Positions 2,714 to 34,601 are shown, counted from the stretch's first letter. The stretch: DNA of 64,000 nt from an uncultured Bacilli bacterium (GCA_947629205.1 CANRCV010000003.1:1303-65302), one strand, 5' to 3'. The notes: generated by a model from the sequence alone, not told the origin. A program made the numbers and translations.

Positions 2714-3241
2714 TTAGTTTTCTTTTTCTTTATAAAACTTTTCCCATAATTCTTCATTAGAAAGGCATTCATTTTCTTCTTCTCTTTTTTTAATGTATTC
2801 ATCAAATGTACCAATCACTTTAGCAGGTACTCCTGCTACTACACTATTTTCTGGAACATCTTTGGTTACAACGGATCCTGCTGCTACTATGGCATTTGGT
2901 CCAATTCGTACATTTTTTAAAATAGTTGAATTACAACCAATAAAGACATTATCCATAATTTCAATACAACCAGCTTGATAAGAAAAATTTTTTCCTTTTA
3001 AATAGTTTAAACCTAAATGAAAAACATCATGGGTTACAAAAGTAACATTGCTGGTTATAATATCGTTGTTATGAAATTTGATTAGTTTTGGATCTGATGG
3101 TATGACTCTAGGTTGAAAAAAGAAATTTTCTCCTACACTTTTAAATATTTGATGTTTTAGAATATATTGATTTCTTTTATCACTATTGATCATTAAAGCT
3201 ATGCGTAATCTTCTTAATTGATTTTTTGTATATTCTTTCAT
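2714..3241 (-). CDS. hexapeptide-repeat (left-handed beta-helix) sugar O-acetyltransferase
   Basis: 175 aa. Hexapeptide repeats [LIV]GxxxxI in IGCNSTILKNVRIGPNAIVAAGSVV (LacA/WcaF-like family). Confidence 0.7.
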   Translation of the reverse strand: MKEYTKNQLRRLRIALMINSDKRNQYILKHQIFKSVGENFFFQPRVIPSDPKLIKFHNNDIITSNVTFVTHDVFHLGLNYLKGKNFSYQAGCIEIMDNVFIGCNSTILKNVRIGPNAIVAAGSVVTKDVPENSVVAGVPAKVIGTFDEYIKKREEENECLSNEELWEKFYKEKEN

Positions 3242-7242: not shown

Positions 7243-7251
7243 GGGATATAG

Positions 7252-8577
7252 ATGAAAAAAAGTTTTTTAGTAAGTATAACTTTGTTACTTTTACTACCCT
7301 TACATGTTTTTGCAGCAGGAAAAGCTAGTATTAGTGGGGCTTCTAGTGTAGAGGTTGGTAGTAGTGTTACCGTAACGGTTACTTTAACCAATACAGCATC
7401 TTGGAATATTAAAATTAATTCTTCTGGTTCGACGAGCGGTTGTTCTCAAAGTTTTGCAGATGCTTCTAGTAATGGAAAAAATACAACCAAAAAATTAAGT
7501 GTAACTTGTAAAGCAACAAGTATTGGAACCATTGGATTTACCGTTTCTGGTGATATTACCAGTGCAGATGGTGCTAATAGTAATGTTTCTTTAAGTAAAA
7601 GAGTAACGGTTACTCCTGTTCGTGAAAAATCAAAAGATGCTAACTTAGCTTCTATAACGCTTGAGGGATATACATTGAGTCCTGAATTTAATAAAGAAAC
7701 TTTAGAGTATGAAACGACTATTCCATCTACTGTGAATACTGTTATACTTTCTGCAAAAGCAAATGAATCTCATGCAAGTGTAGCAGGAGTTGGAGAATTT
7801 GAGGTCACAGAAGGAATAAATACATTTGAAATCGTCGTTACTGCTGAAAATGGGAATCAAAAAACCTATAAAGTACATGTGAATGTAGAAGATACTAATC
7901 CAATTCATGTTAAAATAGGAAATGATGAATATACAGTGATTAAAAATGCTAAAAGTTTAACCAAACCAGAAACTTATGAAGAAAAAACCGTAACGATTAA
8001 TGACTTTACTATACCAGCTTTTTATAGTGATATTACGAAATTTACTTTGGTAGGATTAAAAAGTCAAGAGGGGAAAATTTACTTAGCTATTTATGAGGAA
8101 GAAACAAATACGTATGTTTTATATAATGAAATTACAGCGGGTTCTCTAAATTTATATTTAGTTGATTTTCCAAAAGAATTTCCAGAATATACAAAAAGTA
8201 CTTTAGAAATTAATAATGTTGTTGTTCCTATCTATAAATTTAGTAATAGTCGTTTTGTTTTAGTCTATGGAATGAATATTGAAACAGGAGAGTACGATTA
8301 TTATACATATGATACAAAAGAAGCAACATTTCAAAGTTGGAATCATGAGGAGATTGATGCTTTAAATAAAGAGGTAAAAACGTATCAACTTATTTGCTTT
8401 GCTTTTGGAATTGGTTTATTCTTTGCTTTTATACTTATTCTTTGTTTACTTAAAAAAAGAAAGAAAAAAAATAAGAAGAAAGACCAAAAAGAAGAAAAAA
8501 AGAAAGAAGTAAAAGAACAAACCCAAGAAGAAAAATTAAAACAATTTGATCAATTTGAAGAGAAGAAGAAAAAGTAG
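7252..8577 (+). CDS. cell-surface protein with signal peptide, cadherin-like beta-sandwich domain, C-terminal TM helix and Lys/Glu-rich cytoplasmic tail
   Basis: ANLASITLEGYTLSPEFNKETLEYETTIPSTV...TYKVHV matches the cadherin-like beta-sandwich pattern. TM helix CFAFGIGLFFAFILILCLL is followed by a KKRKKKNKKK tail. Confidence 0.55.
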   Translation: MKKSFLVSITLLLLLPLHVFAAGKASISGASSVEVGSSVTVTVTLTNTASWNIKINSSGSTSGCSQSFADASSNGKNTTKKLSVTCKATSIGTIGFTVSGDITSADGANSNVSLSKRVTVTPVREKSKDANLASITLEGYTLSPEFNKETLEYETTIPSTVNTVILSAKANESHASVAGVGEFEVTEGINTFEIVVTAENGNQKTYKVHVNVEDTNPIHVKIGNDEYTVIKNAKSLTKPETYEEKTVTINDFTIPAFYSDITKFTLVGLKSQEGKIYLAIYEEETNTYVLYNEITAGSLNLYLVDFPKEFPEYTKSTLEINNVVVPIYKFSNSRFVLVYGMNIETGEYDYYTYDTKEATFQSWNHEEIDALNKEVKTYQLICFAFGIGLFFAFILILCLLKKRKKKNKKKDQKEEKKKEVKEQTQEEKLKQFDQFEEKKKK

Positions 8578-12056: not shown

Positions 12057-12503
12057 ATGAATAGTTTAAAAATAATATTAAAAATTATTTTAATCGGTTT
12101 TTTTATTTTCGTAATTACTCGATTTTATCAAATTGGTATTGTTTTTGGTCATTCTATGGAACCAACTTTAAAACCATATCATTTGCTTGTAATTCAAAAA
12201 TTTCATTTTAATATTGAAGCAAATGATATTGTGATTATCAAAAAAAAGAATCAGTATATGATTAAAAGAGTTATTGGATTACCAAATGATGAGGTGCAAA
12301 TAAAAGAGTATCCTTATATTAATGGGAACCAATTTGATAATGTATGGATAGAAAATCCAGGTGAAATAACAGAGGTTTTGTTAAAAGAAAACGAATACTT
12401 TGTTTTAGGAGACAATCGACAAAATAGTATTGATAGTCGTTTTTCACAAATTGGAATTATTGAAAGAAAAGAGATTATTGGTAAAGTATTAGGAAGGAAG
12501 TAA
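12057..12503 (+). CDS. lepB: signal peptidase I (S26 family)
   Basis: 148 aa with an N-terminal TM segment. Catalytic Ser box GHSMEPT, Lys box IKRVIGLPND, and GDNRQNSIDSR. Confidence 0.85.
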   Translation: MNSLKIILKIILIGFFIFVITRFYQIGIVFGHSMEPTLKPYHLLVIQKFHFNIEANDIVIIKKKNQYMIKRVIGLPNDEVQIKEYPYINGNQFDNVWIENPGEITEVLLKENEYFVLGDNRQNSIDSRFSQIGIIERKEIIGKVLGRK

Positions 12504-12507
12504 AAAT

Positions 12508-14337
12508 ATGCAAGCAATTATGTTAGCAGCTGGAATGGGGAAAAGACTAGGAAAATATACAAAAGATAATACAAAATGTATGTTAGAAATTAATGGCAAA
12601 ACATTAATTGAAAGAGCAATTGAAGCTCTAATTGACTCCGGGGGGGGGGTTACAAAGTTAATAATTGTTACTGGATATAAAGGAGAAAATTTAAAAAAAT
12701 TTTTATTAGAAGAATGTAAAAATGAAAAAATAAAACAACTACCTTTGGAATTTATTGATAATCCAGAATATAATAAAACTAATAATATATATTCTTTGTA
12801 TTTAGCAAAAGAAGCATTAGAAAAAGATGATACAATTCTTTTAGAATCTGATTTAATCTATGATGGAAAACTTATTAAAAAGTTAATAGAATCTCCTGAG
12901 AAAAATTTGGTTTCTGTTGCTAAATATAAACAATGGATGGATGGAACCGTTATTAAAGTTGATGATCAACAAAATGTAATTGAATTTATTGAAAAGAAAA
13001 ATTTTAATTATGAAGAAATAGAAAATTATTATAAAACGGTTAATATTTATAAATTAAGTAAAGAATTTTCCCATCAAGTTTTTATTCCTTTTTTAAAAAG
13101 TTATATTCAAGCCTATGGTAATAATGAGTACTATGAATTAGTATTAAAAATTATTGCCCATTTATCCCGTAGTCAATTAAAAGCATTGGATGTATCAAAC
13201 ATTCTTTGGTATGAGATAGATGATGCACAAGATTATGATATTGCTACTTGTATGTTTTCAAGCGGTAAAGAAAAACTAGAAAATTTTCAAAAACGATATG
13301 GTGGTTACTGGAGATTTGAAAATATATTAGATTATTGCTATTTAGTAAATCCTTATTATCCACCAAAACAATTAATGGAGAAAATAAATTATTTTTCCAA
13401 CAATTTAATTACACAATATCCTTCTGGTCAAAAAATTGAATGTATTAATGCAAGTCGTTTATTTAATGTAGATGAAAATTATTTATGTGTTGGGAATGGA
13501 GCTGCTGAATTAATTAATATTTTAGGAAATATTTTAAAAGGAAAAATGTATGTTCCAAAAACAGCATTTAATGAATATATTCGTTGTTTTAAAAATAATG
13601 AATTTACTTTATTTGATATGGAAAAAAATAATTTTCAATATGATTTACAAGATATTAAGAAAAATATCTCTTTGAATGAGATTATTTGTTTAGTAAATCC
13701 TGATAATCCTTCCGGAACATTTTTATCTTTTGAAGAAATAATTTCTATTTTAGAACAATGTAAAAAAGAAAATAAAATAGTTATTTTTGATGAATCATTT
13801 ATTGATTTTGTTAATCCAAATAAAAGATATACTTTATTACAAAATGAAATTTTAGAAAAATATCAAAATTTAATTGTAATTAAAAGTATTAGTAAATCTT
13901 ATGGCATTCCTGGTTTAAGATTAGGTATTTTGGCAACAAGCAATCTATCATTAATGGAAGAAATAAAAAGAAATATTTCGATATGGAATATTAATTCTTA
14001 TGGAGAATATTTCTTACAAATTGCTAATCTTTATAGCAAAGAATATATAAAATCTTGTGATAAAATTGCTATAGAAAGAGATCGCTTTATGGAAGAGTTA
14101 TCTAAAATTAATGGTGTAATTGTTTATCCATCTGAAGCAAATTATGTTTTGTGTAAATTAAAAAATTATAACTCAACAAAATTAGCCATTCAATTGTTAG
14201 ATCAAAATATTTTTATTAAAGATTTAAGAACAAAAAATGCATTTAATGATAAAGATTACATTCGACTTGCCATTAGAACAAAAGAAGAAAATGATGTTTT
14301 GGTTCGTGAAATCAAAAAATCTTTAAAGGGTGAGTAG
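12508..14337 (+). CDS. bifunctional LicC-like nucleotidyltransferase (N-term) / class I-II PLP-dependent aminotransferase or decarboxylase (HisC/CobD-like, C-term); contains an in-frame G10 tract
   Basis: N-terminal MQAIMLAAGMGKRLG matches the NTP-transferase G-rich loop. The C-terminal half has the PLP-lysine context SKSYGIPGLRLGIL. The tract at 12640-12649 encodes GGG. Confidence 0.7.
   Translation: MQAIMLAAGMGKRLGKYTKDNTKCMLEINGKTLIERAIEALIDSGGGVTKLIIVTGYKGENLKKFLLEECKNEKIKQLPLEFIDNPEYNKTNNIYSLYLAKEALEKDDTILLESDLIYDGKLIKKLIESPEKNLVSVAKYKQWMDGTVIKVDDQQNVIEFIEKKNFNYEEIENYYKTVNIYKLSKEFSHQVFIPFLKSYIQAYGNNEYYELVLKIIAHLSRSQLKALDVSNILWYEIDDAQDYDIATCMFSSGKEKLENFQKRYGGYWRFENILDYCYLVNPYYPPKQLMEKINYFSNNLITQYPSGQKIECINASRLFNVDENYLCVGNGAAELINILGNILKGKMYVPKTAFNEYIRCFKNNEFTLFDMEKNNFQYDLQDIKKNISLNEIICLVNPDNPSGTFLSFEEIISILEQCKKENKIVIFDESFIDFVNPNKRYTLLQNEILEKYQNLIVIKSISKSYGIPGLRLGILATSNLSLMEEIKRNISIWNINSYGEYFLQIANLYSKEYIKSCDKIAIERDRFMEELSKINGVIVYPSEANYVLCKLKNYNSTKLAIQLLDQNIFIKDLRTKNAFNDKDYIRLAIRTKEENDVLVREIKKSLKGE
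12640..12649 (+). repeat. homopolymeric G10 tract (simple sequence repeat) inside the nucleotidyltransferase domain coding region
   Basis: Counted directly: ...gactccGGGGGGGGGGttacaaag, translated DSGGGVTK, in frame. Confidence 0.9.
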
Positions 14338-15952
14338 TATGAAAAAATTAATTTATTCTTATATAATTACTTTTGCATTATGTTTTATGTTATTTTTATA
14401 TGAACCAATCATGATGTATGCTAATAATATTAATGATTTTTGGTTTGATTTAGGCATTGCCTTTTTTCCTTTCTTAAAATTATTTTTAGGTATTTTCATC
14501 ATAGGGGTCTTGTTATTAACTTTGCTTTATTTTTTGAATTCTAAATTATTAAAAAATAAAAATATTTTTTCTGTTTTAATTATTATTGAATTTATTTGCT
14601 TTTTAGCAACTTATATTCAAGGAAATTATTTAATTAAAGATTTACCCATTTTAGATGGTAGTGCAATTGCATGGTCTTCTTTTACTAAGGAAAATATTAT
14701 TACGCTTTTTGTTTGGCTTTTCATTATAATTCTTACAATTTTTTGTATTAAAAAAGTAAAATTAGAAAATACCTTAAAATATGCATCCTTTCTTTCTTTA
14801 GCGGTTTTTGCCATGCTTACAACCTCATTGATTTCTACTCTTATGACTACTGATGCATTAAAAAGTAAGGATGGCATTAATATTACTAATGAAAATTTAG
14901 ATACTATTTCTAACAATGATAATTTTTTAATCTTTTTAGTGGATGCAATAGATTCACAAACTTTTAATCAAATATTACAAGATAATGAGGATTATAAAAA
15001 GGTATTTGCAGATTTTACTTATTTTCCTGATACATTATCTGCATATCCATTTACAAGAGATTCTATTCCTTATATTTTATCTGGAATATGGAATAAAAAT
15101 GAACAAGAATTTAGTGACTATTCAAGTAATGCATTAAATAATTCACCATTTTTTGCAGAATTAACAAATAGAAACTATCAAATAAATTTATATGATGATG
15201 AACTAATTTGGAATGGTAAAGGTCATGATATATTGCAAAATATATCGTCAATAAAAAATTCAAATATTGATTTAACTAGCTTTTATAAACAAGAATTAAA
15301 ATATATTTTGTTTAAGTATTTACCATATAACTTAAAAAAATATTCAAGGATTGAATATATGAATTTTAATATGAGCATAGAAAAATTTAGATGGAATAAT
15401 GATTTAATTTATGAAAATTTAAAAGATAATCAAACTCTTCGTAAAGTGAATAAAAATCAATTTCAATTTGTGCATGCTGAAGGAGGACATGTACCATTTG
15501 ATTATGACAAAGATTTAAATAAGATTGAAAATGGTACATATGGTCAAAAAGTAGAAGCTTCTATTACCTTAATTAAAACTTATTTGGAACGTTTAAAAGA
15601 TAATAATAGTTATGATAATTCTAATATTATTATTATGGCTGACCATGGTTTTGCATTTGATTTGATCGATCCACGTTTCAATCCAATATTACTAATTAAA
15701 GGAAAAAATGAGCATCATGATTTAGAAATTTCAAATCTTCCTATTTCCTATGAAGATTTGCAATCTGCTTACATTGATTTATTAGATAATAAAAAAAGTG
15801 ATGAATTATTTGCAAATATTCCAGAAAAAAGAACTAGAAAACTGATATGGTATATATATGGAAGAGAAAACCATATGGTAGAATTTGAAACAAATGACAA
15901 AGCTTACGAATCGAATAAATATAAAGCAACAGGGAATATATATGATAGGTAG
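14330..15952 (+). CDS. LtaS/sulfatase (alkaline-phosphatase superfamily) membrane enzyme, phospho-headgroup transferase-like
   Basis: 5 N-terminal TM segments followed by an extracellular domain with LIFLVDAIDSQTF, HAEGGHVPFDYD and IIIMADHGFAF motifs. 8-nt overlap with the upstream gene. Confidence 0.65.
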   Translation: MSSMKKLIYSYIITFALCFMLFLYEPIMMYANNINDFWFDLGIAFFPFLKLFLGIFIIGVLLLTLLYFLNSKLLKNKNIFSVLIIIEFICFLATYIQGNYLIKDLPILDGSAIAWSSFTKENIITLFVWLFIIILTIFCIKKVKLENTLKYASFLSLAVFAMLTTSLISTLMTTDALKSKDGINITNENLDTISNNDNFLIFLVDAIDSQTFNQILQDNEDYKKVFADFTYFPDTLSAYPFTRDSIPYILSGIWNKNEQEFSDYSSNALNNSPFFAELTNRNYQINLYDDELIWNGKGHDILQNISSIKNSNIDLTSFYKQELKYILFKYLPYNLKKYSRIEYMNFNMSIEKFRWNNDLIYENLKDNQTLRKVNKNQFQFVHAEGGHVPFDYDKDLNKIENGTYGQKVEASITLIKTYLERLKDNNSYDNSNIIIMADHGFAFDLIDPRFNPILLIKGKNEHHDLEISNLPISYEDLQSAYIDLLDNKKSDELFANIPEKRTRKLIWYIYGRENHMVEFETNDKAYESNKYKATGNIYDR

Positions 15953-15960
15953 GTGCGAAT

Positions 15961-18024
15961 ATGTTTATAGTTGATATTTTAGGAAACTTAATGCGTATTT
16001 TTTATAATTTGTTTCATAATTATGGACTAGCCATTTTACTATTTACTTTGTTTAGTAAAATTATTTTGCTTCCTATATCTGTATGGGTACAAAAAAATTC
16101 TATAAAAATGGTAAAAATGCAACCCAGTATAAATCGAATTAAGATAAATTATTTTGGTGATAAAGATAAAATAGCAGAGGAAGAATCGATTTTATATCAT
16201 AAAGAAAAATATAATGCCTTTGCATCATTAATACCATTAATCATTCAAATTGGATTATTATTATGTTTAGTAGAAGTAATTAATCATCCTTTAACTTATC
16301 TTTTAAATACTCCAAAAGAAACAACTCAACAATTAACCAATATTATGGTTGAACAAAGAGGCTCAAATCCTGAATCTTCCTCTTTAGAAATTGAGGTTGT
16401 CAAAGAGATAAAAAAAGAGAATCAACAAAATATTTTTTCTACTGTTGAAAATCATGAAGCAATAGAAGAACAAGTCAAAAATTTAAACTTTAATTTTTTA
16501 GGATTTGATTTAACTTGGATTGCCGTTGTGGAACAACATTTATCTATTTGGGTACCAATACTTGCTGGATTAAGTGCTTTATTTATGTGCTTTGCTCAAA
16601 ATAAAATCAATGTTTTGCAACAAGAACAATCTAATTGGAATAAATATGGAATGCTTATTTTTTCTGTTGGATTATCTTTATATTTAGGTGCTTTTGTTCC
16701 AGCAGGTGTTGCTCTTTACTGGATTTATAGTAATTTATTTGCTGTTTTACAACAATGGCTTTTAAATTTATGGATTAACCCGAAAAAATATATAGATTAT
16801 AAAGAATTAGAAACAACAAATGAAGAATTAAAGGCATTAAAAGAAATTAAAAATAAAAATAAATTAACAAAAGAAGAAAGAAAAAAAGCAAAAAACGATT
16901 ATAAAAGATTTTTTAAAGTCGTTAATAAGCATTTGGTTTTCTATTCAGAAAGTAATGGCTTTTATAAATATTATAAGGGGATAATTGAATATTTATTAAA
17001 AAATACAAATATAGTTATTCATTATATTACAAGTGATTATCATGATCAAATATTTGATTTAGAAAAAGAAAACCACCAAATCAAAGCTTATTTTATTGAT
17101 GAAAAAAGATTAATTACTTTGATGATGAAAATAGATGCTGACGTAGTAGTAATGACTATGCCAGATTTACAAACCTATCATATTAAAAGAAGCTATTTGA
17201 GAAAAGATATTGAATATATTTATATTCCTCATGGAATGGATAGTTTAAATATGACTATGCGAACGGGTTCAATGAATTATTTCGATACTATTTATACTAC
17301 AGGACCTCATCAATATGATGAAGCTATCAAAACAAATGAATACTATCATTTGAATCGCAAAATTATTAAATGGGGCTATAGTTTACTTGATGATATGCTT
17401 AGTGAATATAAAAAAGAAAATAAGAATAAAACGAAGCAAATATTAATTGCTCCTTCTTGGCAAAAAGATAATATTATAGATTTATGTTTATCTAAAATTT
17501 TAGAGAAATTAAAAGATAAAAACTATGATTGTTATATTAGACCTCATCCACAAGAAATAAGAAGGAAAAAAGATAAATTTTTGCAAATGCAAGAAGAATA
17601 TAAAAAATATCCTAATATTCATTTTGAATTAGATTTTTCAAAAAATAGTACGGTATTTAATGCAGATTTACTTATTACAGATTGGTCTGGAATTGCTTTT
17701 GAATATGCTTTTACAACGAAAAAACCGGTTGTATTTATTGATACTCCAATGAAAGTAATGAATCCAGAATATAAAAATATTAAAGTAGAGCCTTTTAATA
17801 TATGGGCAAGAAAAGAATTAGGAGAGATTGTTAAAGTAGAAGAAATAAATACTATTGACCAAAAAATAGATTATATTATAAATCATTATAAAGAATATCA
17901 AGCAAAAATTAATAAATTAACAAAAGAATCTACTTATAATTTAGGTATAAGTGGTAAAGTTGGTGCAGAATATATTATTGAAACTATACAAAAGAAAATA
18001 GAAGAAAGAAGGAATGAAAAATGA
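15961..18024 (+). CDS. fusion protein: YidC/Oxa1-like membrane insertase domain (N-term, ~280 aa) + CDP-glycerol glycerophosphotransferase (TagF/TagB family) domain (C-term)
   Basis: NYGLAILLFTLFSKIILLPI...KMQP...YHKEKYNAFASLIPLIIQ...LYWIYSNLF parallels SpoIIIJ/YidC. The C-terminal part has the TagF-family IAPSWQKDN and ITDWSGIAFEYAF...KPVVFIDTP motifs. Confidence 0.65.
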   Translation: MFIVDILGNLMRIFYNLFHNYGLAILLFTLFSKIILLPISVWVQKNSIKMVKMQPSINRIKINYFGDKDKIAEEESILYHKEKYNAFASLIPLIIQIGLLLCLVEVINHPLTYLLNTPKETTQQLTNIMVEQRGSNPESSSLEIEVVKEIKKENQQNIFSTVENHEAIEEQVKNLNFNFLGFDLTWIAVVEQHLSIWVPILAGLSALFMCFAQNKINVLQQEQSNWNKYGMLIFSVGLSLYLGAFVPAGVALYWIYSNLFAVLQQWLLNLWINPKKYIDYKELETTNEELKALKEIKNKNKLTKEERKKAKNDYKRFFKVVNKHLVFYSESNGFYKYYKGIIEYLLKNTNIVIHYITSDYHDQIFDLEKENHQIKAYFIDEKRLITLMMKIDADVVVMTMPDLQTYHIKRSYLRKDIEYIYIPHGMDSLNMTMRTGSMNYFDTIYTTGPHQYDEAIKTNEYYHLNRKIIKWGYSLLDDMLSEYKKENKNKTKQILIAPSWQKDNIIDLCLSKILEKLKDKNYDCYIRPHPQEIRRKKDKFLQMQEEYKKYPNIHFELDFSKNSTVFNADLLITDWSGIAFEYAFTTKKPVVFIDTPMKVMNPEYKNIKVEPFNIWARKELGEIVKVEEINTIDQKIDYIINHYKEYQAKINKLTKESTYNLGISGKVGAEYIIETIQKKIEERRNEK

Positions 18025-18293
18025 AAAAAATGGTAAAAGAAATTTTATTTGTAGTAGTGTTTGGAGTAAGTTTTGCATTTTTATTTAGTTTAAATGTAAA
18101 TGCTTATATTGATCCATCGGTTATGACTTATGCTATTCAAGCAGTAGCTGGTATTGTGATTGCAGTTGGAGCAGTAATAGGTATTTACTTTCGTAAAGCA
18201 AAAAAGAAGATTAGTAAGAAATTAGGAATTGATGAAAATAAAAATAAAGAAATAGAAACTGATGAAATTGTTGTAAAAAATGACAAAAAATAA
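18021..18293 (+). CDS. small membrane protein (one TM, Lys-rich tail)
   Basis: 90-aa ORF overlapping the upstream stop by 4 nt. Hydrophobic core followed by a charged tail. Confidence 0.4.
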   Translation: MKKMVKEILFVVVFGVSFAFLFSLNVNAYIDPSVMTYAIQAVAGIVIAVGAVIGIYFRKAKKKISKKLGIDENKNKEIETDEIVVKNDKK

Positions 18294-18378: not shown

Positions 18379-18407
18379 CTTGATTTTCACCATTTTTTAC
18401 TTTATAA
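18379..18407 (+). promoter_or_regulatory. sigma70-type promoter of the AbiE operon (TTGATT - 17 bp - TATAAT), followed by SD AAGAGGTG
   Basis: ttgattttcaccattttttactttataat read directly. The SD sits 6-7 nt before the ATG at about 18428. Coordinates are +/-1. Confidence 0.55.
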
Positions 18408-18427
18408 TGGTAAAAAGAGGTGAAAAT

Positions 18428-19018
18428 ATGATAATTACCAATACAATTTTTAAAAATAATAATCAACAATATAGGAATCAAAATAATAAATTAACAAGGG
18501 AAGTAAAAGCAAATAAGTTGTATAAAATTATAAATGGGTTATATGAAACAGATCCAAATACACCAGGCTATTTACTTGCTGGAAGTATTTATGGTCCATC
18601 TTATATTTCTTTTGAATATGCTCTTTCCTTTTATGGTCTAATTCCAGAAAGAGTAACTGTGATTACAAATGCTACTTTTGATAAGAAAAAGAAAAAAGAG
18701 TATCATACCTCATTTGGTGTTTTTACCTATAGGGATGTTCCTAAAGAGGTTTATGCCCAAGAAATTCTTTTAAAAGTAGAAAAAAATTATTCTTATCAAA
18801 TTGCAACTCCAGAAAAAGCCTTATGTGATAAGTTATATACTTTATCTCCGCTTCATAATTATAAGAATTTAGAAATAATGCTTTTTCAAGATTTACGTAT
18901 TGATGAAGAAGAATTTAATAAACTAGATGGAAATAAAATAAAAACACTAAGCCATTTCTATCATTCAACAAATATAAATTTATTAGCAAACTATATGAGG
19001 AGAAATAAACATGAATAA
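18428..19018 (+). CDS. AbiEi-family antitoxin-like transcriptional regulator (type IV TA / abortive infection)
   Basis: The track ORF begins at an upstream TTG. The ATG with a strong SD is the likely start. The C-terminal region (GYLLAGSIYGPSYISFEYALSFYGLIPE...ATPEKALCDKLY) resembles AbiEi/COG5340. 8-nt overlap with the AbiEii gene. Confidence 0.55.
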   Translation: MIITNTIFKNNNQQYRNQNNKLTREVKANKLYKIINGLYETDPNTPGYLLAGSIYGPSYISFEYALSFYGLIPERVTVITNATFDKKKKKEYHTSFGVFTYRDVPKEVYAQEILLKVEKNYSYQIATPEKALCDKLYTLSPLHNYKNLEIMLFQDLRIDEEEFNKLDGNKIKTLSHFYHSTNINLLANYMRRNKHE

Positions 19019-19871
19019 TATTATTGAACAAATGTTAGAAAAATATGAAATCAAAAATAGTAATGATGAATTAAATGCCTTAAAAGAAATCATTCAAGAA
19101 ATTGTATTGTCAGGCTTGTCACGAAGTGGTTTTTTTGATGAGGCTGCCTTTTATGGTGGAACAGCATTAAGAATTTTTTATAATTTAAATCGTTTTTCTG
19201 AAGATTTAGATTTTGCTTTACTATCACCAAATACAAATTTTGATTTAAGTAAATATTTTATTTCTATCGAGAAAGAATTAAAAGCGTATGGTTTAAATTT
19301 AGAAATTCATCCAAAAATAAAAAATAAAGATTCTAATATTACCTCTGCTTTTCTAAAAGGGGATACTTTAGAACATATTTTAAAATTTTTCCCTAAGGAA
19401 GAAACAAGACAATTTGATCACTTACTTAAAGATATCAAAATTAAATTTGAGGTGGACATAAACCCTCCACAGGGAGCAAATTATAAGATAGAATATAAGT
19501 TATTGCCAAGTCCACATCAAATTCGTCTTTATGATAAGGAATCTTTGTTTGCTGGTAAAATCCACGCTATTTTATGTCGAAATTGGATTTCTAGAACAAA
19601 AGGTAGAGATTTATATGATTATGTATTCTTTATGGCAACAAATACAAAAGTAAATTTAGAATTATTAAAAAATAAATTAATTGAATCTAGCTATATAAAA
19701 GAAAACGAAGAGTTTGATATTGAAAAATTGAAAGGACTATTGACTAAAAAATTTCAAGAAATTAATTATAATGATGCTAAAAATGATGTATTTCCATTTA
19801 TTAAAGATGTGGATAGTCTTAAAGTATGGAATAGTGAATTTTTTATTCATATTACAGAAAAATTACAATAA
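19011..19871 (+). CDS. AbiEii/AbiGii-family nucleotidyltransferase toxin (DUF1814)
   Basis: FYGGTALRIFYNLNRFSEDLDF is the hallmark N-terminal motif of the AbiEii NTase family. 286 aa. Confidence 0.7.
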   Translation: MNNIIEQMLEKYEIKNSNDELNALKEIIQEIVLSGLSRSGFFDEAAFYGGTALRIFYNLNRFSEDLDFALLSPNTNFDLSKYFISIEKELKAYGLNLEIHPKIKNKDSNITSAFLKGDTLEHILKFFPKEETRQFDHLLKDIKIKFEVDINPPQGANYKIEYKLLPSPHQIRLYDKESLFAGKIHAILCRNWISRTKGRDLYDYVFFMATNTKVNLELLKNKLIESSYIKENEEFDIEKLKGLLTKKFQEINYNDAKNDVFPFIKDVDSLKVWNSEFFIHITEKLQ

Positions 19872-20853: not shown

Positions 20854-20945
20854 AAAAAGTGGGTGCAAAAAGGTGTAAATTTCATCAAAAAGTGGGTGCA
20901 AAAAGGTGTAAATTTCATCAAAAAGTGGGTGCAAAAAGGTGTAAA
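20854..20945. repeat. 2.8 tandem copies of a 33-bp direct repeat (aaaaagtgggtgcaaaaaggtgtaaatttcatc)
   Basis: Copies at 20854-20886, 20887-20919 and a partial copy from 20920. They are contiguous, with no spacers. Confidence 0.85.
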
Positions 20946-21050: not shown

Positions 21051-22361
21051 ATGAAAAGAAAAATATATGAAGATTTAATGAATTGGAAGGAAGATAATAG
21101 TTTTAAACCCTTAATTGTTTTAGGAGTAAGACAATGTGGAAAAACCTATATAATTGATGAATTTTGTAAAAATGAATTTAAAAGTTACAAAAAAATTAAT
21201 TTATTATATGATACAGATGTTATTAAATTATACACATCAAATGATCCATCAGAAAAAAAATATAATGCTTTAAAAATGTTAATTGATTTTGATTTTGACC
21301 AAGAAAATAGTGTATTATTTATTGATGAAATTCAAGAATGTGAAGAATTAATCTCTGAATTAAAATTTTTTAATGAAAAACATAGTAATGTGCGTATTAT
21401 ATGTGCAGGCTCTTTGCTTGGTGTAAAATTAGCCAGGTTTAAGAAATCGTTTCCAGTAGGAAAAATAAATATATTAAATATGTATCCTATGGATTTTGAG
21501 GAATTTATGATTGCTTTTAATCAACAACCTCTTTTAGATAAAATAAGAGAATGCTTTCAAAAAGATGAGCCAATGGGAGTTCTTCACAAAATAGCCATAG
21601 ATTATTATAAAAAATATTTATTATCAGGTGGAATGCCAGAAAGTATAAAAGCATTAATCGATTGTCAAGAAGATTATTATAATTATGATTTATCAAAGTT
21701 AGATAATATTATTGAAGGCTATAAAAATGATATGAGTCATCATGTTACTAATTCAAACGAAACTTTAAAAATTAGAAATATTTATAGTTCTTTACCTTCA
21801 CAACTTCAAAATGTATCTAAAAAATTCCAATATTCTGTTATTAATACAGAAGCCAAATCAAGAGAGTATGCTTTACCTTTACATTGGTTAGTAGAAAGTG
21901 AAATGGTTCAAATTTGTAAATGTGTTAAATTACCAGAAATACCTTTATTAGGTTTTGTAGATAACGAGGTTTTTAAAGTTTACTATTCAGATGTTGGCGT
22001 TTTTAATCGATTAGTCAATAATAATGCAAAAACAATTCTTCTTGATGATATGAAAATATATAAAGGCATTATTACTGAAAATTATGTTGCAAATCAGTTA
22101 GCTGCTAAGGAAATTGATTTATTGTATTGGAAAGGCAAAAGAGATGCTGAGGTTGATTTCTTAATTACAACTGCAAATGATGGAGTTATTCCTATTGAGG
22201 TGAAAGCAGAAGAGCATACACAATCCAAAAGTTTAAAAATATATGATGAATTATACCATCCAAACTATATGATTAGAATTAGTTCTAAAGATTTTGGTTT
22301 TGCTAATAATATTAAATCAGTTCCATTATATGCTGTTTTTTGTATTGATTCAATACTATAA
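21051..22361 (+). CDS. AAA+ ATPase of the AAA_14/DUF4143 family (ATP-binding protein, function unknown)
   Basis: Walker A GVRQCGKTY, Walker B VLFIDEIQ, and a C-terminal DUF4143-like region. SD AGGAGA upstream. Confidence 0.7.
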   Translation: MKRKIYEDLMNWKEDNSFKPLIVLGVRQCGKTYIIDEFCKNEFKSYKKINLLYDTDVIKLYTSNDPSEKKYNALKMLIDFDFDQENSVLFIDEIQECEELISELKFFNEKHSNVRIICAGSLLGVKLARFKKSFPVGKINILNMYPMDFEEFMIAFNQQPLLDKIRECFQKDEPMGVLHKIAIDYYKKYLLSGGMPESIKALIDCQEDYYNYDLSKLDNIIEGYKNDMSHHVTNSNETLKIRNIYSSLPSQLQNVSKKFQYSVINTEAKSREYALPLHWLVESEMVQICKCVKLPEIPLLGFVDNEVFKVYYSDVGVFNRLVNNNAKTILLDDMKIYKGIITENYVANQLAAKEIDLLYWKGKRDAEVDFLITTANDGVIPIEVKAEEHTQSKSLKIYDELYHPNYMIRISSKDFGFANNIKSVPLYAVFCIDSIL

Positions 22362-23701: not shown

Positions 23702-23718
23702 AATAATAGGTGATTTCA

Positions 23719-25041
23719 ATGAAAAGAAAAATATATCAAGAATTATTGAATTGGAAAGAAGGAAAAATAGAGAATAAACCTTTGATGCTTTTAGGAGTAA
23801 GGCAATGTGGTAAAACTTATATTATTGAAGAATTTTGTAAAAATGAATTTAAATATGCTAAGACGATCAATTTGTTAAGTGATACAAATGTTATAGAATT
23901 ATATCGAAGTAATCTTACATCTGATGAAAAATATGTTCAATTGAAATTAATCATTAATTTTGATTTGGATAAAGAAGATTCTGTTCTTTTTATTGATGAA
24001 ATTCAAGAATGCGAAGAATTAATTGCTGAATTAAAATATTTTTGTGAAAAGCATAATAATGTTCACATTATTTGTGCTGGTTCTTTACTAGGAGTGAAAT
24101 TAAATCGCCTGAAATCATCTTTTCCCGTTGGAAAAGTGTGGATACAATATTTATATCCAATGGATTTCGAAGAATTTTTAATGGCATATAAACAAGAAAA
24201 TTTAATTGATTATATTAAAGAATGTTTTAATAAAAATAAGGCATTAAGTGAACCTTTACATCAAAAACTAATAATGCTTTATAGAACCTATTTAATTACT
24301 GGAGGAATGCCAGAGAGCATTAAAAATATGATAATCAATGAAGATGATTATATAAAATATAATAAAAATATTTTACAAAGTATTTTAATTGCTTATATAA
24401 ATGATATGCAAAAACATGTTTTAAATGAACAAGAATCTTTTAAAATAGAAGCTATTTATAAGTCACTTCCTTCTCAATTAATGAATATTTCAAAAAAATT
24501 TCAATATTCAAATGTTTCAAAAAATGCAAGAGCAAGAGATTATGAAACAGCTATTCATTGGTTAGAAAATAGTAATTTAGTTATTAAATGTAGAAATATA
24601 CGATTACCTGAAATTCCTTTGGAAGGCTTTGCTGAAGAAGATGTATTTAAACTCTATTTAAGTGATGTAGGGGTTCTTAATAAATTATTGATAATCAAAA
24701 TGGAAGATATTTTAACGAATAAAAATTTTATATACAAAGGAATTATTGCGGAAAACTTTGTTGCCAATCAATTAGTTGCTAATAATATTCCACTATATTA
24801 TTGGAAAAATGGGGATGGTACTGCAGAGGTAGATTTTTTAATTGATACAAAAGATGGTATAATTCCCATTGAGGTAAAAGCTTCCAATAATACGCAATCC
24901 AAAAGTTTAAAAGTATATATGGATAAATACAAACCAAAATATGCAATAAGAATAAGTAGCAAAAATTTTGGTTATAATGAAAAAACCAATGTTAAATCTA
25001 TTCCACTTTATGCTACATTTTTAATTAAAGAAATTGTATAG
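23719..25041 (+). CDS. AAA+ ATPase of the AAA_14/DUF4143 family, paralog of 21051-22361
   Basis: Track ORF starts at GTG 23710. The ATG at 23719 aligns with the paralog start MKRKIY. Same Walker A/B motifs. About 55% identity to the first copy by eye. Confidence 0.7.
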   Translation: MKRKIYQELLNWKEGKIENKPLMLLGVRQCGKTYIIEEFCKNEFKYAKTINLLSDTNVIELYRSNLTSDEKYVQLKLIINFDLDKEDSVLFIDEIQECEELIAELKYFCEKHNNVHIICAGSLLGVKLNRLKSSFPVGKVWIQYLYPMDFEEFLMAYKQENLIDYIKECFNKNKALSEPLHQKLIMLYRTYLITGGMPESIKNMIINEDDYIKYNKNILQSILIAYINDMQKHVLNEQESFKIEAIYKSLPSQLMNISKKFQYSNVSKNARARDYETAIHWLENSNLVIKCRNIRLPEIPLEGFAEEDVFKLYLSDVGVLNKLLIIKMEDILTNKNFIYKGIIAENFVANQLVANNIPLYYWKNGDGTAEVDFLIDTKDGIIPIEVKASNNTQSKSLKVYMDKYKPKYAIRISSKNFGYNEKTNVKSIPLYATFLIKEIV

Positions 25042-34592: not shown

Positions 34593-34601
34593 TGGTTCCT
34601 C

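What the first reader, a model, noticed from the sequence alone, without database searches (positions are those of the whole stretch)
15961..18024. Unusual single-ORF fusion of a YidC/Oxa1-like insertase domain with a TagF-like CDP-glycerol glycerophosphotransferase domain
The first ~280 aa align by eye with SpoIIIJ/YidC. NYGLAILLFTLFSKIILLPI corresponds to NYGLSIILVTILIRLLILPL. The KMQP, HKEKYNAF...PLIIQ and LYWIYSNLF blocks also match. The remaining ~400 aa carry TagF-family motifs (ITDWSG...KPVVFIDTP). A YidC-like module used as a membrane-anchoring or scaffolding domain for a teichoic-acid polymerase-type enzyme is not an architecture I recognise. It could represent co-option of an insertase fold, or coupling of enzyme membrane insertion to catalysis.
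Basis: partly seen in the sequence, partly recalled or inferred. Interest (0 to 1): 0.55.

Follow-up and report, generated by a model that had tools for sequence, protein, structure and literature searches.

The report
YidC insertase fused to TagF-like transferase
A real gene, conserved in at least 280 bacterial species, joins a membrane-protein insertase (YidC) to a teichoic-acid-type phosphotransferase, and it always travels with a tiny membrane protein and nearly always with an outward-facing phosphotransferase, which points to an undescribed machine for decorating the cell envelope.

Summary
ORF 15961-18024 (687 aa) carries a complete YidC core (Pfam 105 bits) and a GT-B domain of the TagF family (35.8 bits; both catalytic histidines present). 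It is not an artefact: at least 280 species genomes encode it full-length, including cultured Waltera isolates and Saccharibacteria.

The context is more interesting than the fusion. A 90-aa microprotein (18021-18293) with a near-invariant mature start, YIDPSV, accompanies the fusion in 77 of 77 loci with usable flanks. A 5-TM alkaline-phosphatase-type membrane protein is present in at least 66 of 80 loci. A type I signal peptidase appears only where the microprotein has a signal peptide. In other genomes these parts are fused in further combinations (peptidase-YidC-TagF; YidC-TagF-microprotein-phosphatase-type protein) or split into separate genes. Neighbouring genes make CDP/CMP-activated head groups.

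Best reading, which is inferred: this is a self-contained phospho-head-group transfer machine. The YidC domain acts as the dedicated insertase and holder of the microprotein, the TagF-like domain works in the cytoplasm, and the phosphatase-type partner works outside. I found no paper describing it. Donor, acceptor and the membrane-crossing intermediate are unknown.

The parts
12057..12503 (+). Type I signal peptidase (148 aa), first gene of the operon. It has one N-terminal TM helix and intact catalytic boxes SMEPT, KRVIGLP and GDNRQNSIDSR.
   Evidence: Pfam Peptidase_S26 E 7e-26. NCBIfam sigpep_I_bact 106.5 bits against a cut-off of 47. Boxes and TM helix read. In the fetched loci it is present only where the microprotein has a signal peptide. 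It is fused to YidC-TagF in P0387.
12508..14337 (+). Fusion of a LicC/PntC-like cytidylyltransferase with a CobD-like PLP decarboxylase (609 aa). It probably makes the CDP-activated amino-alcohol-phosphate donor.
   Evidence: Pfam NTP_transf_3/NTP_transferase plus Aminotran_1_2. TIGR01140 Thr-phosphate decarboxylase scores 176.9 bits, below its cut-off. PDB matches: 6OUX Thr-phosphate-decarboxylase-like 1e-39, CobD 1LC5 3e-24, 6PD1 1e-11, LicC 1JYK 8e-10. A homologue lies near the fusion in about 23 of 80 loci.
14339..15952 (+). Membrane protein with 5 TM helices and an extracytoplasmic alkaline-phosphatase-superfamily ('Sulfatase' Pfam) domain, 537 aa. It is the outward-facing partner.
   Evidence: Pfam Sulfatase 28.8 bits against 25. 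AF2 model pLDDT 91.3, five N-terminal helices plus an alpha/beta domain. Best full-length fold matches are PbgA/YejM (6V8Q, 6XLP) and MCR-1 (9NWW). Invariant D202, T239, H379, H384 and D435-H436-G437; no C/S-x-P-x-R sulfatase motif. Present in 66 of 80 loci. Fused to YidC-TagF in P0361, P0363, P0374, P0379 and P0389. The start at ATG 14339 matches the database protein P0121 and has an RBS.
15961..18024 (+). The finding: a single ORF of 687 aa, a YidC-TagF-like fusion protein.
   Evidence: AF2 model mean pLDDT 86.8, pTM 0.73.
15961..16776 (+). YidC/Oxa1 core (aa 1-272). It comprises an amphipathic N-terminal helix, TM1 with K33 (codon 16057-16059), the cytoplasmic C1 hairpin, and TM2 to TM5. 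There is no signal peptide or lipobox. Predicted topology is N-out, C-in.
   Evidence: Pfam and NCBIfam scores. PDB YidC hits at E 2e-9, or 7e-14 with the profile; E. coli R366 aligns with K33. K33 is K in 77, R in 1, and a gap in the 3 truncated sequences of 81. Helix pattern. Loop charges.
16294..16494 (+). Acidic insert of about 67 aa in the extracytoplasmic loop between TM2 and TM3 (aa 112-178), with the conserved motif ESSSLE. Canonical YidC lacks it.
   Evidence: The Pfam match spans 249 residues for a 163-position model. The insert is present in 58 and absent in 23 of 81 fusions. The signal-peptide form of the microprotein goes with the insert 32:1. Helical in the model.
16777..16920 (+). 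Lys-rich helical linker (aa 273-320; 16 K/R against 9 D/E). It resembles the basic C-terminal tails of Gram-positive YidC2/Oxa1.
   Evidence: Sequence and charge count. Helices 280-294 and 304-319. The comparison with YidC2/Oxa1 tails rests on established knowledge and was not tested here.
16921..18024 (+). Cytoplasmic GT-B domain of the TagF (Glyphos_transf) family (aa 321-687). H424 (codon 17230-17232) corresponds to the TagF catalytic base. H529 (codon 17545-17547) corresponds to the second catalytic His. Motifs: APSWQK, RPHPQ, ITDWSGIAFEY, KKPVVF.
   Evidence: Pfam 35.8 bits. The fold search gives a TagF-like capsule multienzyme (8QOY, E 5e-10) as best match, then generic GT-B enzymes. hhalign to a canonical Glyphos_transf ORF (L023:1863-3071, Pfam 241.5 bits) gives probability 95.8% over 335 columns, with H424 on the His of WHG and H529 on the His of KFHP. 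H354, H424, H529, R527, W500 and D574-W575-S576 are invariant in 81 sequences.
18021..18293 (+). Microprotein of 90 aa. Its start overlaps the fusion's stop codon (ATGA). It consists of a signal peptide (aa 1-28, 18021-18104) ending in VNA, the mature start YIDPSVMTY, one TM helix rich in small residues, a basic stretch RKAKKK, and an acidic tail GIDENKNKEIETDEI.
   Evidence: ORF. Homologues in 70 of 80 loci by tblastn at a median 70% identity, plus 7 more found by motif; the other 3 contigs end at the fusion, giving 77 of 77. Y1, D3, P4, S5, V6, Q12, G16, I19, A20, G22, D43, E44 and K48 are invariant. The family has about 1,816 clusters, no Pfam domain, and the few source names are 'hypothetical protein'. 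It is fused in-frame after the TagF-like domain in P0361, P0390, P0401 and P0404.

Best explanation
The ORF is a genuine fusion protein and the hub of a five-gene operon (12057-18293). The operon encodes a self-contained membrane machine that adds a phospho-alcohol head group to the cell envelope.

SHOWN:
- Both halves are intact family members under strong conservation.
- The fusion always co-occurs with a procoat-like microprotein and nearly always with a 5-TM alkaline-phosphatase (AP)-superfamily protein.
- These parts, and a type I signal peptidase, are fused to each other in various orders in other genomes, and occur as separate adjacent genes in others.
- Cytidylyltransferase-type donor genes lie nearby.

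INFERRED:
(1) The C-terminal GT-B domain sits in the cytoplasm. Like TagF, it uses His424 as a base to transfer a phospho-alcohol from a CDP/CMP-activated donor onto a membrane-bound hydroxyl acceptor. Here the donor is probably an amino-alcohol phosphate made by the upstream cytidylyltransferase/PLP-decarboxylase. The acceptor is most plausibly a lipid.
(2) The N-terminal YidC core (N-out, C-in) tethers the enzyme to the membrane. It also acts as the dedicated insertase and holder of the microprotein, in the way YidC handles M13 procoat or Pf3 coat. It would translocate the short acidic YIDPS segment, after which the operon's own signal peptidase cuts after VNA.
(3) The mature microprotein stays as an obligatory subunit. 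Its conserved acidic tail docks on the cytoplasmic enzyme, and its N-terminus and TM helix contact the AP-type protein.
(4) The AP-type protein (Thr239 nucleophile, metal site D202/D435/H436) takes the head group at the outer face and puts it on a wall polymer, as LtaS, GacH and EptA do with lipid head groups.
For: Reality and conservation.

Functional residues: K33 (the E. coli R366 position) is K in 77 and R in 1 of the 78 sequences that cover the position (81 aligned). H424, H529 and DWS are invariant. H424 and H529 align with the two catalytic His residues of a canonical TagF-family protein, and their roles are given in PMC10901376 and PMC5974469.

Topology: the C1 loop and the linker are net positive, and the TM2-TM3 loop is net negative. 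The AF2 helix pattern agrees.

Genetic linkage:
- Microprotein in 77 of 77 usable loci, translationally coupled in the window.
- AP-type protein in 66 of 80 loci.
- Signal peptidase in 25 of 40 loci with the signal-peptide form, against 0 of 38 with the short-leader form. At the level of 80%-identity clusters the counts are 15 of 25 against 0 of 12.

Rosetta-stone fusions: peptidase-YidC-TagF (P0387, two independent assemblies); AP-YidC-TagF (P0363, P0379, P0389); YidC-TagF-AP (P0374); YidC-TagF-microprotein-AP (P0361), with the microprotein likewise in frame after the TagF-like domain in P0390, P0401 and P0404, which were not Pfam-scanned. All are topologically consistent.

Split version: AP protein, TagF-like enzyme, microprotein and standalone YidC as separate genes (L082).

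Minimal version without YidC: microprotein + TagF-like + AP-type protein (L087, L088). This fits YidC and the peptidase being biogenesis add-ons.

Donor genes: the NTP-transferase/PLP fusion, TagD-like genes or PEP-mutase/cytidylyltransferase genes lie within 10 kb in about 40 of 80 loci and in the split systems.

Separate lineage: ordinary clostridial YidC genes are only 25-27% identical, whereas the fusions are 50-71% identical across phyla.

Microprotein design: a short translocated segment with an invariant Asp, one TM helix and a positive cytoplasmic flank. This matches the classical YidC-only substrates (established knowledge).
Against: No activity has been shown for any part.

The TagF-like domain is remote. 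It scores 35.8 bits and has no PDB sequence hit even with a profile. Its acceptor-binding half has its own motifs, so donor and acceptor are guesses.

Systems without a linked YidC exist (L088). YidC is therefore not needed for the chemistry, and its role could be minor.

The standalone YidC of L082 has Asn where K33 sits.

15 of 40 loci with the signal-peptide form show no peptidase within the fetched flanks.

The AP-type protein's best full-length fold match, PbgA, is not an enzyme. Its catalytic residues were inferred from invariance and spacing, not from an alignment to LtaS or EptA.

I could not check whether these genomes also carry an ordinary yidC.

The co-occurrence statistics are only partly corrected for shared ancestry.

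No complex model could be computed.
Confidence: 0.45

Rival explanations
1. Private translocator (MprF-like). The TagF-like domain makes a head-group-phospho-lipid on the inner leaflet. The hydrophilic groove of the fused YidC core, with the microprotein packed against it, is the dedicated scramblase that delivers this lipid to the outer leaflet for the AP-type transferase. Protein insertion would not be the YidC domain's main job.
For: E. coli YidC and other Oxa1-family proteins scramble glycerophospholipids in vitro and in simulations (PMC11047089). A cytoplasmic and an extracytoplasmic phosphotransferase are fused into one polypeptide, which implies an intermediate that crosses the membrane. 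The characterised membrane-bound AP-type transferases I know of (LtaS, EptA, GacH, OpgB, BcsG) use lipid head groups (established knowledge). The same window holds a GtrA-GT2 fusion, a flippase-type domain joined to a cytoplasmic transferase. The groove charge K33 is conserved.
Against: Variants without any linked YidC exist (L087, L088). Phospholipid flip-flop in bacterial membranes needs no dedicated factor (established knowledge). This model does not explain the signal-peptidase co-occurrence or the peptidase-YidC fusion. No lipid product is known.
Confidence: 0.2
2. Microprotein as covalent shuttle (DltX-like). The head group is carried as a phosphodiester on the invariant Tyr (or on Ser5/Thr8) at the extracytoplasmic end of the microprotein. 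[quoted passage not shown]
For: Y1 and D3 are the only residues kept across the whole microprotein family, including distant split systems. In signal-peptide forms, cleavage is placed exactly before the Tyr. The microprotein, not YidC, is the universal partner of the TagF-like enzyme. There is a precedent: DltX, a microprotein with an invariant extracellular Tyr, shuttles D-Ala between DltB and DltD (PMC12148441).
Against: The TagF active site is cytoplasmic and the Tyr is outside in the final topology. Loading before insertion would consume one protein per transfer. Short-leader forms do not expose the Tyr as the N-terminus. A Tyr-phosphodiester carrier has no precedent.
Confidence: 0.1
3. 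Passive anchor. The TagF-like domain simply decorates or extends the undecaprenyl-linked wall polymer in the cytoplasm before ABC export, as in ordinary wall teichoic acid synthesis. The YidC core is only a membrane tether, and the AP-type protein and microprotein act independently.
For: The window locus is an ABC-transporter-dependent glycopolymer cluster: GT4 initiator, DUF1972 GT, ABC-2 exporter, LCP. ABC-2 genes lie near the fusion in about 25 of 80 loci. TagF-like enzymes are normally monotopic and need membrane association (PMC10901376).
Against: A mere tether would not keep K33, the C1 hairpin and about 60 invariant positions. It does not explain the 77-of-77 microprotein linkage, the peptidase association or the multi-part fusions. 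The module also occurs alone among housekeeping genes (L088, L089).
Confidence: 0.15
4. Housekeeping YidC with an accessory domain. The protein is the cell's general insertase and merely carries an extra enzyme.
For: NCBI names relatives 'membrane protein insertase YidC'. All canonical YidC features are present.
Against: The gene lies in variable, horizontally exchanged envelope loci rather than in the usual rnpA-yidC-jag setting (established knowledge), which is not seen here. It is 50-71% identical between Firmicutes and Saccharibacteria, yet only 25-27% identical to ordinary clostridial YidC. Whether a second yidC exists in the same genome could not be tested.
Confidence: 0.07
5. Artefact: two genes joined by a sequencing or assembly error.
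For: None. One relative (L081) is split by a frameshift, which shows that errors of the opposite kind occur.
Against: Full-length fusions occur in 280 species genomes from many projects, including isolate genomes of Waltera. There are hundreds of database clusters. The linker is conserved.
Confidence: 0.01

Closest known systems
YidC/Oxa1 insertases of Gram-positive bacteria (SpoIIIJ/YidC1, YqjG/YidC2; B. halodurans YidC2, PDB 3WO6/3WO7)
   Same: Five-TM core, a positive charge in the TM1 groove, the cytoplasmic C1 hairpin, and a basic C-terminal extension. Family HMMs are passed.
   Different: No lipoprotein signal peptide. A 67-aa acidic insert sits in the TM2-TM3 loop. The groove residue is Lys rather than Arg. 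The tail continues into a 370-aa enzyme. The gene is linked to a single candidate client. Identity to ordinary clostridial YidC is only 25-27%.
The M13 procoat / Pf3 coat pathway (YidC-only insertion followed by leader peptidase)
   Same: A small protein with either a signal peptide, a short acidic loop and one TM helix (procoat type), or a short N-tail and one TM helix (Pf3 type). It depends on YidC plus a type I signal peptidase. Here all three are encoded together or fused.
   Different: The components are cellular rather than viral. The insertase and peptidase are dedicated copies. The client appears to be a permanent subunit of an enzyme complex. Insertion by this YidC was not tested.
TagF / TarL / TagB and the TagF-like capsule polymerases (Cps3D 8QOY, Bcs3 8A0M)
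   Same: GT-B fold, both catalytic His residues, and the donor-side motifs (AP[ST]W/Y, HP, D[YW]S). CDP-donor genes lie nearby.
   Different: Very divergent (35.8 bits; no PDB sequence hit). The acceptor-side motifs are unique (VFYSESNGFYKYY, HYITSD, MTMPDL). It is a polytopic membrane fusion rather than a monotopic protein with amphipathic helices. It lacks the polymerase-type N-terminal domain.
Membrane-bound alkaline-phosphatase-superfamily transferases (LtaS, GacH, EptA/MCR-1, OpgB, BcsG) and PbgA/YejM
   Same: The partner protein has five TM helices plus an outward-facing AP domain, an invariant Thr and a D/DH metal set.
   Different: There is no detectable sequence similarity to any solved member. 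It is genetically or physically coupled to a cytoplasmic CDP-dependent enzyme, which is not known for the characterised members.
MprF and GtrA-GT2 fusions (a cytoplasmic lipid-modifying enzyme fused to its flippase)
   Same: The architecture is the same in outline: a polytopic domain with a lipid-accessible hydrophilic path fused to a cytoplasmic transferase, followed by an extracytoplasmic step. A GtrA-GT2 fusion is in this very window.
   Different: The membrane domain here is an insertase fold. Translocation of a lipid product is hypothetical.
Dlt pathway (DltB-DltX-DltD)
   Same: A membrane microprotein with an invariant Tyr at its extracytoplasmic end bridges a membrane component and an extracellular transferase (PMC12148441).
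   Different: The chemistry differs (acyl against phosphodiester), the protein families differ, and the Tyr is at the N-terminal rather than the C-terminal end. A covalent intermediate is untested.

Membership tests
YidC/Oxa1/Alb3 insertase family | Passes the curated family HMMs (Pfam PF02096; NCBIfam TIGR03592) | tested here: met
   105.2 bits against a cut-off of 35. 101.7 bits against 84.3.
YidC/Oxa1/Alb3 insertase family | Five-TM core with a cytoplasmic helical hairpin between TM1 and TM2; N-out, C-in | tested here: met
   AF2 helices 21-35, 37-63/68-81, 86-108, 194-216, 225-245 and 248-271. Loop charges follow the positive-inside rule. Fusions with outward-ending partners are topologically consistent.
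YidC/Oxa1/Alb3 insertase family | Conserved positive charge in the hydrophilic groove (E. coli R366, B. subtilis R73) | tested here: met
   K33 aligns with R366. It is K in 77 and R in 1 of the 78 sequences that cover the position; the other 3 of the 81 aligned are truncated. The split-system YidC of L082 has Asn there.
YidC/Oxa1/Alb3 insertase family | Insertase activity on a client protein | not testable with these tools
   Supported only by context: the procoat-like microprotein, the dedicated signal peptidase, and the peptidase-YidC fusion.
TagF-like (Glyphos_transf) phosphotransferases | Passes Pfam PF04464 | tested here: met
   35.8 bits against 22.1, over aa 320-594. Some relatives fall below detection.
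TagF-like (Glyphos_transf) phosphotransferases | GT-B fold | tested here: met
   Model pLDDT 86.8. Foldseek gives the TagF-like multienzyme 8QOY at E 5e-10, then many GT-B enzymes.
TagF-like (Glyphos_transf) phosphotransferases | The two catalytic histidines (TagF H444 as base, H584) (PMC10901376, PMC5974469) | tested here: met
   H424 aligns with the His of WHG, and H529 with the His of K-x-HP, in a canonical family member (hhalign 95.8%; the reference scores 241.5 bits in Pfam). Both are invariant in 81 sequences. Equating WHG and HP with TagF H444 and H584 rests on my knowledge of the family consensus.
TagF-like (Glyphos_transf) phosphotransferases | All five active-site sequence motifs | tested here: inconclusive
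   Donor-side motifs align clearly. The acceptor-side region aligns with low confidence and has its own conserved motifs.
TagF-like (Glyphos_transf) phosphotransferases | Uses a CDP-polyol donor; polymerase versus single-addition enzyme | not testable with these tools
   Cytidylyltransferase genes lie nearby. There is no polymerase-type N-terminal domain.
Membrane-bound AP-superfamily phosphotransferases (LtaS/EptA type); applies to the partner gene 14339-15952 | N-terminal TM bundle plus an extracytoplasmic AP-fold domain | tested here: met
   (PbgA, MCR-1). Pfam Sulfatase 28.8 bits against 25.
Membrane-bound AP-superfamily phosphotransferases (LtaS/EptA type); applies to the partner gene 14339-15952 | Thr nucleophile and metal ligands (Glu/Asp, Asp-His) | tested here: inconclusive
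   D202, T239 and D435-H436 are invariant, with spacing like LtaS and EptA. No residue-level alignment to a characterised enzyme was obtained.
Type I signal peptidase (S26); applies to gene 12057-12503 | Family HMM plus the Ser/Lys catalytic boxes | tested here: met
   TIGR02227 106.5 bits against 47. SMEPT, KRVIGLP and GDNRQNSIDSR are present.
YidC-only substrates (procoat/Pf3 type); applies to the microprotein 18021-18293 | Small size, a short translocated segment with an acidic residue, one TM helix, and a positive cytoplasmic flank | tested here: met
   Signal peptide, VNA|YIDPSVMTY, TM helix, RKAKKK. Actual dependence on YidC is not testable here.

The most novel reading that the evidence does not exclude
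The module is a new kind of trans-membrane group-transfer relay in which an insertase fold has been co-opted to pass a phosphodiester-linked head group across the membrane. One possibility is that the head group travels as a private lipid made by the TagF-like domain, with the YidC groove plus the microprotein acting as a dedicated scramblase (MprF-like). The other is that it travels covalently on the invariant Tyr of the microprotein (a DltX-like shuttle for phospho-head groups). In either case it goes from a cytoplasmic CDP-dependent enzyme to an alkaline-phosphatase-type transferase outside the cell.
Probability: 0.28. Interest if true: 0.9.

Novelty: new variant of a known kind. Interest (0 to 1): 0.72.

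Why it matters
YidC-family proteins are known as general insertases or as paralogues with a few clients. As far as I know and could find in the library, none has been reported as a built-in part of an enzyme, or fused to a signal peptidase. This system offers a natural, genetically linked set of insertase, client and peptidase. It is conserved across at least 280 species, including common gut Lachnospiraceae that can be cultured (Waltera) and reduced-genome Saccharibacteria. That makes several questions directly testable: how YidC recognises a client, and whether its reported lipid-scrambling activity is used in cells.

It also defines two things. One is an unannotated microprotein family of about 1,800 clusters. 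The other is a probable new route for putting glycerol-phosphate, amino-alcohol-phosphate or phosphonate groups on the surfaces of gut bacteria, and such groups shape charge, phage and immune recognition. Current annotation ('membrane protein insertase YidC', 'hypothetical protein', 'sulfatase') hides all of this.

Tried and rejected
- PDB sequence searches of the C-terminal domain, as a single sequence and as a profile, found nothing. The TagF link had to be made through Pfam, the fold search and a profile alignment to a canonical family member found in locus L023.
- An apparent standalone YidC carrying the loop insert (P0477) looked like a natural split. It is a frameshifted fusion.
- The promoter/terminator scan of the operon gave no more sites than shuffled sequence, so it is uninformative in this 24% GC DNA.
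- NCBIfam has no model for the microprotein or the AP-type protein. The cluster look-up gave no names or accessions.
- The plasmid search found only ordinary yidC genes.
- Literature searches for YidC with glycerophosphotransferase or TagF, and for phosphonate clusters with these parts, found no description of the fusion or module.
- I considered that the locus peptidase might process the AP-type protein, as SpsB cleaves LtaS. I set this aside because the peptidase tracks the microprotein's signal peptide.
- I considered the microprotein's cytoplasmic tail as the TagF acceptor. I rejected this because the tail has no conserved hydroxyl residue.


Full report
**1. The observation**

The window holds an intact ORF at 15961-18024 (+), 687 aa. 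Pfam assigns aa 21-269 to 60KD_IMP (E 4e-30, 105.2 bits, cut-off 35) and aa 320-594 to Glyphos_transf (E 6e-9, 35.8 bits, cut-off 22.1). NCBIfam TIGR03592 (yidC_oxa1_cterm) is passed at 101.7 bits against 84.3. Solved YidC structures are hit by sequence (E 2e-9; 7e-14 with a family profile), and E. coli R366 aligns with K33.

**2. Not an artefact, and widespread**

- The 120 best relatives among 5.8 billion proteins are all 679-692 aa, cover the whole query at 63-100% identity, and mostly carry both Pfam domains. NCBI calls them 'membrane protein insertase YidC'.
- A scan of one genome per GTDB species found 280 genomes with a relative. The 80 loci fetched (L001-L080) match at 50-71% identity, nearly all over essentially the full length.
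- They come from Bacilli and Clostridia MAGs, Lachnospiraceae including cultured Waltera acetigignens, W. intestinalis and W. hominis, Oscillospiraceae, Solobacterium, and many Candidatus Saccharibacteria.
- An exhaustive search of 1.84 billion cluster representatives gave 536 hits at E <= 1e-30. About 45 of the top 150 are plain fusions of 625-760 aa.
- Ordinary clostridial yidC genes are only 25-27% identical to the N-terminal half. The fusion's YidC is therefore a separate lineage that has moved between phyla.

**3. Anatomy of the fusion**

The AlphaFold2 model built on 46 relatives is confident (mean pLDDT 86.8, pTM 0.73). It shows these elements in order:
- an N-terminal amphipathic helix;
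- TM1 (aa 21-35, with K33);
- a cytoplasmic helical hairpin (37-81);
- TM2 (86-108);
- a 67-aa acidic, mostly helical insert (112-178, conserved ESSSLE) that canonical YidC lacks;
- TM3 to TM5 (194-271);
- a Lys-rich helical linker (273-320);
- a Rossmann-type two-lobed domain (321-687).

Loop charges fit N-out/C-in. There is no signal peptide or lipobox.

In an alignment of 81 fusions, K33 is K in 77, R in 1, and a gap in 3 truncated sequences. H354, H424, H529, R527, W500 and D574-W575-S576 are invariant. The insert is present in 58 and absent in 23, mainly Saccharibacteria. Both halves carry many invariant positions, so both appear to be under purifying selection.

**4. Is the C-terminal half really TagF-like?**

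It is remote. No solved structure is found by sequence, even with a profile. The fold search puts a TagF-like capsule multienzyme first (8QOY, E 5e-10; also 8A0M), followed by generic GT-B enzymes such as UDP-GlcNAc 2-epimerases, WaaA and MurG.

I found a canonical family member in locus L023 (ORF 1863-3071, Pfam Glyphos_transf 241.5 bits) and aligned a profile of the C-domain plus its standalone relatives to it. The result was probability 95.8%, E 8e-9, over 335 columns. YIPHG aligns with WHG (H424), APSW with APTY, RPHP with KFHP (H529), and ITDWSGIAFEY with ITDYSSIVFEY.

The family is defined by two catalytic histidines and five motifs, with H444 of TagF as the base that deprotonates the acceptor hydroxyl (PMC10901376; PMC5974469). 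Both histidines are present and invariant. The acceptor-side half has its own motifs. I file the domain as a divergent member of the TagF family. Whether it polymerises or adds one unit is open. It lacks the extra N-terminal domain that characterised polymerases have.

**5. The context is the real finding**

In the window the fusion is the fourth gene of a tightly packed operon, and every gene has an RBS:

| Gene | Coordinates | Spacing to next gene |
|---|---|---|
| Type I signal peptidase (all catalytic boxes intact) | 12057-12503 | 4-nt gap |
| LicC/PntC-like cytidylyltransferase fused to a CobD-like PLP decarboxylase | 12508-14337 | 1-nt gap |
| 5-TM protein with an outward-facing alkaline-phosphatase-superfamily domain | 14339-15952 | 8-nt gap |
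| YidC-TagF fusion | 15961-18024 | 4-nt overlap |
| 90-aa microprotein | 18021-18293 | end of operon |

Across the 80 loci:
- The microprotein is found in 70 by tblastn, at a median 70% identity. That is more conserved than the fusion itself (58%).
- The AP-type protein is found in 66.
- The peptidase is found in 24.
- The cytidylyltransferase/decarboxylase is found in 20 by this test (about 23 by the looser test).
- ABC-2 exporter genes are found in about 25.
- A motif search then found the microprotein in 7 of the 10 'missing' loci. The other three contigs end at the fusion gene. Co-occurrence is therefore 77 of 77.

**6. The microprotein**

The mature core is nearly invariant: YIDPSVMTYAIQA-AGI-IAVGA--GIYFRKAKKK--KLGIDEN-NKEVE-DDI. 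It comes in two forms:
- One has a classical signal peptide ending A-x-A directly before the Tyr. The window has VNA|Y.
- The other has only a 3-17-residue leader, usually ending in Gly.

The locus peptidase goes with the first form only: 25 of 40 loci against 0 of 38. Counting 80%-identity clusters once each gives 15 of 25 against 0 of 12. By my hypergeometric arithmetic on those counts, p is about 3e-4.

The family has about 1,816 clusters, no Pfam or NCBIfam model, and the few source names are 'hypothetical protein'. The design is a short acidic translocated segment, one TM helix and a positive inner flank, with or without a cleavable signal peptide. That is the design of the classical YidC-only substrates M13 procoat and Pf3 coat (established knowledge).

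**7. Rosetta-stone fusions and split versions**

Among the cluster representatives are longer proteins:
- signal peptidase-YidC-TagF (P0387, 861 aa);
- AP-YidC-TagF (P0363, P0379; P0389 with DUF7024);
- YidC-TagF-AP (P0374);
- a four-part chain, YidC-TagF-[TM...PVQA|YIDPSVMTYAIQ... microprotein]-AP (P0361, 1,326 aa). P0390, P0401 and P0404 (1,334-1,386 aa) carry the same in-frame microprotein segment after the TagF-like domain, but their C-terminal parts were not scanned with Pfam.

These recur in independent assemblies, and every junction is topologically consistent.

The reverse also occurs. A ~380-aa standalone relative of the C-domain (41% identical) lies in an operon with an AP-type protein, a 70-aa microprotein (ANA|YLDPN...) and a separate 224-aa YidC, together with a PEP-mutase/cytidylyltransferase, a TPP decarboxylase and an Fe-ADH. 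That is a phosphonate head-group pathway (L082).

Other standalone relatives keep the microprotein (AYLDPGT..Q) and, wherever enough flanking sequence is available, an AP-type protein, but show no YidC in the flanks held (L084, L086, L087, L088).

So the minimal conserved trio is microprotein + TagF-like enzyme + AP-type membrane protein. YidC and the peptidase are recurrent add-ons. The module can also sit alone among housekeeping genes (L088, L089).

**8. Donors**

The window's cytidylyltransferase domain is closest to the PntC-type enzyme in 6PD1 and to LicC. The PLP domain is closest to threonine-phosphate-decarboxylase-like enzymes. This suggests a CDP-activated amino-alcohol phosphate.

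About half of the 80 loci have some cytidylyltransferase-type gene within 10 kb: this fusion in about 23, TagD-like genes in about 18, and PEP-mutase fusions occasionally. The head group seems to be variable while the transfer module is constant.

**9. Mechanism**

A cytoplasmic CDP-dependent phosphotransferase and an extracytoplasmic AP-type transferase that are repeatedly fused into one chain most simply catalyse consecutive steps on an intermediate that crosses the membrane. The characterised membrane-bound AP-type transferases use lipid head groups (established knowledge), so a lipid-linked head group made by the TagF-like domain is the most economical intermediate.

YidC and the peptidase are dispensable add-ons. 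The peptidase follows the microprotein's signal peptide, and peptidase and YidC can be fused. I therefore assign the YidC half the role of dedicated insertase and holder for the microprotein and of membrane core of the complex. The microprotein would be an obligatory bridging subunit. This is inference, with confidence about 0.45.

Rivals:
- The YidC groove as a private scramblase for the lipid product. YidC scrambles lipids in vitro (PMC11047089). MprF and the window's own GtrA-GT2 fusion are architectural parallels.
- The microprotein's invariant Tyr as a covalent shuttle, like DltX (PMC12148441).
- A passive anchor.
- A housekeeping YidC.
- An artefact.

**10. Novelty**

Full-text searches found no paper that describes a YidC-TagF fusion, this microprotein, or the module. 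Both domain families are known, and a YidC paralogue specialised for a client has precedents. I therefore rate it a new variant of a known kind. There is a substantial chance (about 0.28) that the module is a new type of trans-membrane group-transfer relay.

**11. Limits**

- No activity was tested.
- Donor, acceptor and intermediate are unknown.
- The AP-type catalytic residues are inferred from invariance.
- The best full-length fold match for the AP-type protein, PbgA, is non-catalytic.
- The presence of a second yidC in these genomes, and a model of the complex, could not be obtained.

Noticed in passing
window 20854-20945: A perfect 33-bp tandem repeat, 2.8 copies (AAAAAGTGGGTGCAAAAAGGTGTAAATTTCATC), lies in the gap between a GT2 gene and a DUF4143 ATPase gene. 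It creates spurious repetitive ORFs (KVGAKRCKFHQ x3).
   Followed up: partly
window 18380-19871, 21051-22361, 23710-25041: An AbiEi-like/AbiEii toxin-antitoxin pair sits directly after the operon. Two paralogous AAA_14+DUF4143 ATPases flank a DUF1972 glycosyltransferase. These look like selfish or defence insertions inside the glycopolymer locus, which fits a variable, exchanged region.
   Followed up: no
window 56389-61657: A classical three-component glycosylation set: a GT2, DUF6056 and DUF2142 (GT-C-like membrane proteins), and a GtrA-GT2 fusion (58927-60135). The last is an architectural parallel to a translocator domain fused to a cytoplasmic transferase.
   Followed up: no
window 3302-5389 (-): An LCP (LytR_cpsA_psr) ligase of 695 aa carries a PASTA domain. 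This is an unusual combination of a wall-polymer ligase with a peptidoglycan-sensing module.
   Followed up: no
window 5491-8577: A secreted protein with SH3_3 and a type I dockerin domain, followed by a cadherin-like protein. Dockerin suggests a cohesin-bearing scaffold somewhere in this 24% GC organism.
   Followed up: no
L035, L036, L044, L051, L055, L057-L066, L069, L071, L073: Candidatus Saccharibacteria (reduced-genome episymbionts) carry the fusion and the microprotein at 53-61% and about 75-80% identity to the Firmicutes versions. They always have the short-leader microprotein, no loop insert and no peptidase. This looks like horizontal transfer between Firmicutes and CPR bacteria.
   Followed up: partly
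L082:2643-6080, L086:1743-6387, L054: In the split systems, and in one fusion locus, the module is linked to PEP mutase-cytidylyltransferase fusions, a TPP decarboxylase and an Fe-ADH (a 2-hydroxyethylphosphonate-type pathway). The same transfer module may therefore install phosphonates.
   Followed up: partly
fusion aa 112-178 (window 16294-16494): The extracytoplasmic loop insert with the conserved ESSSLE motif is present wherever the microprotein has a signal peptide (32:1), but is also found with 16 short-leader forms. Its role is unexplained; docking of the peptidase or the AP domain is possible.
   Followed up: partly
L002, L050 (record titles): Two loci with 71% and 55% identity are labelled Muribaculaceae and Odoribacter (Bacteroidota). 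Given their gene content, this is more likely a binning error than true occurrence in Bacteroidota.
   Followed up: no
window 33687-35862 (-), 37101-37916, 52938-53738 (-), 54081-55840: An MBOAT gene with an adjacent gene that has no Pfam domain, two LicD phosphotransferases, and an IspD-like cytidylyltransferase with an NAD-dependent epimerase/dehydratase. These are further head-group and acylation systems in the same ~55-kb envelope region.
   Followed up: no
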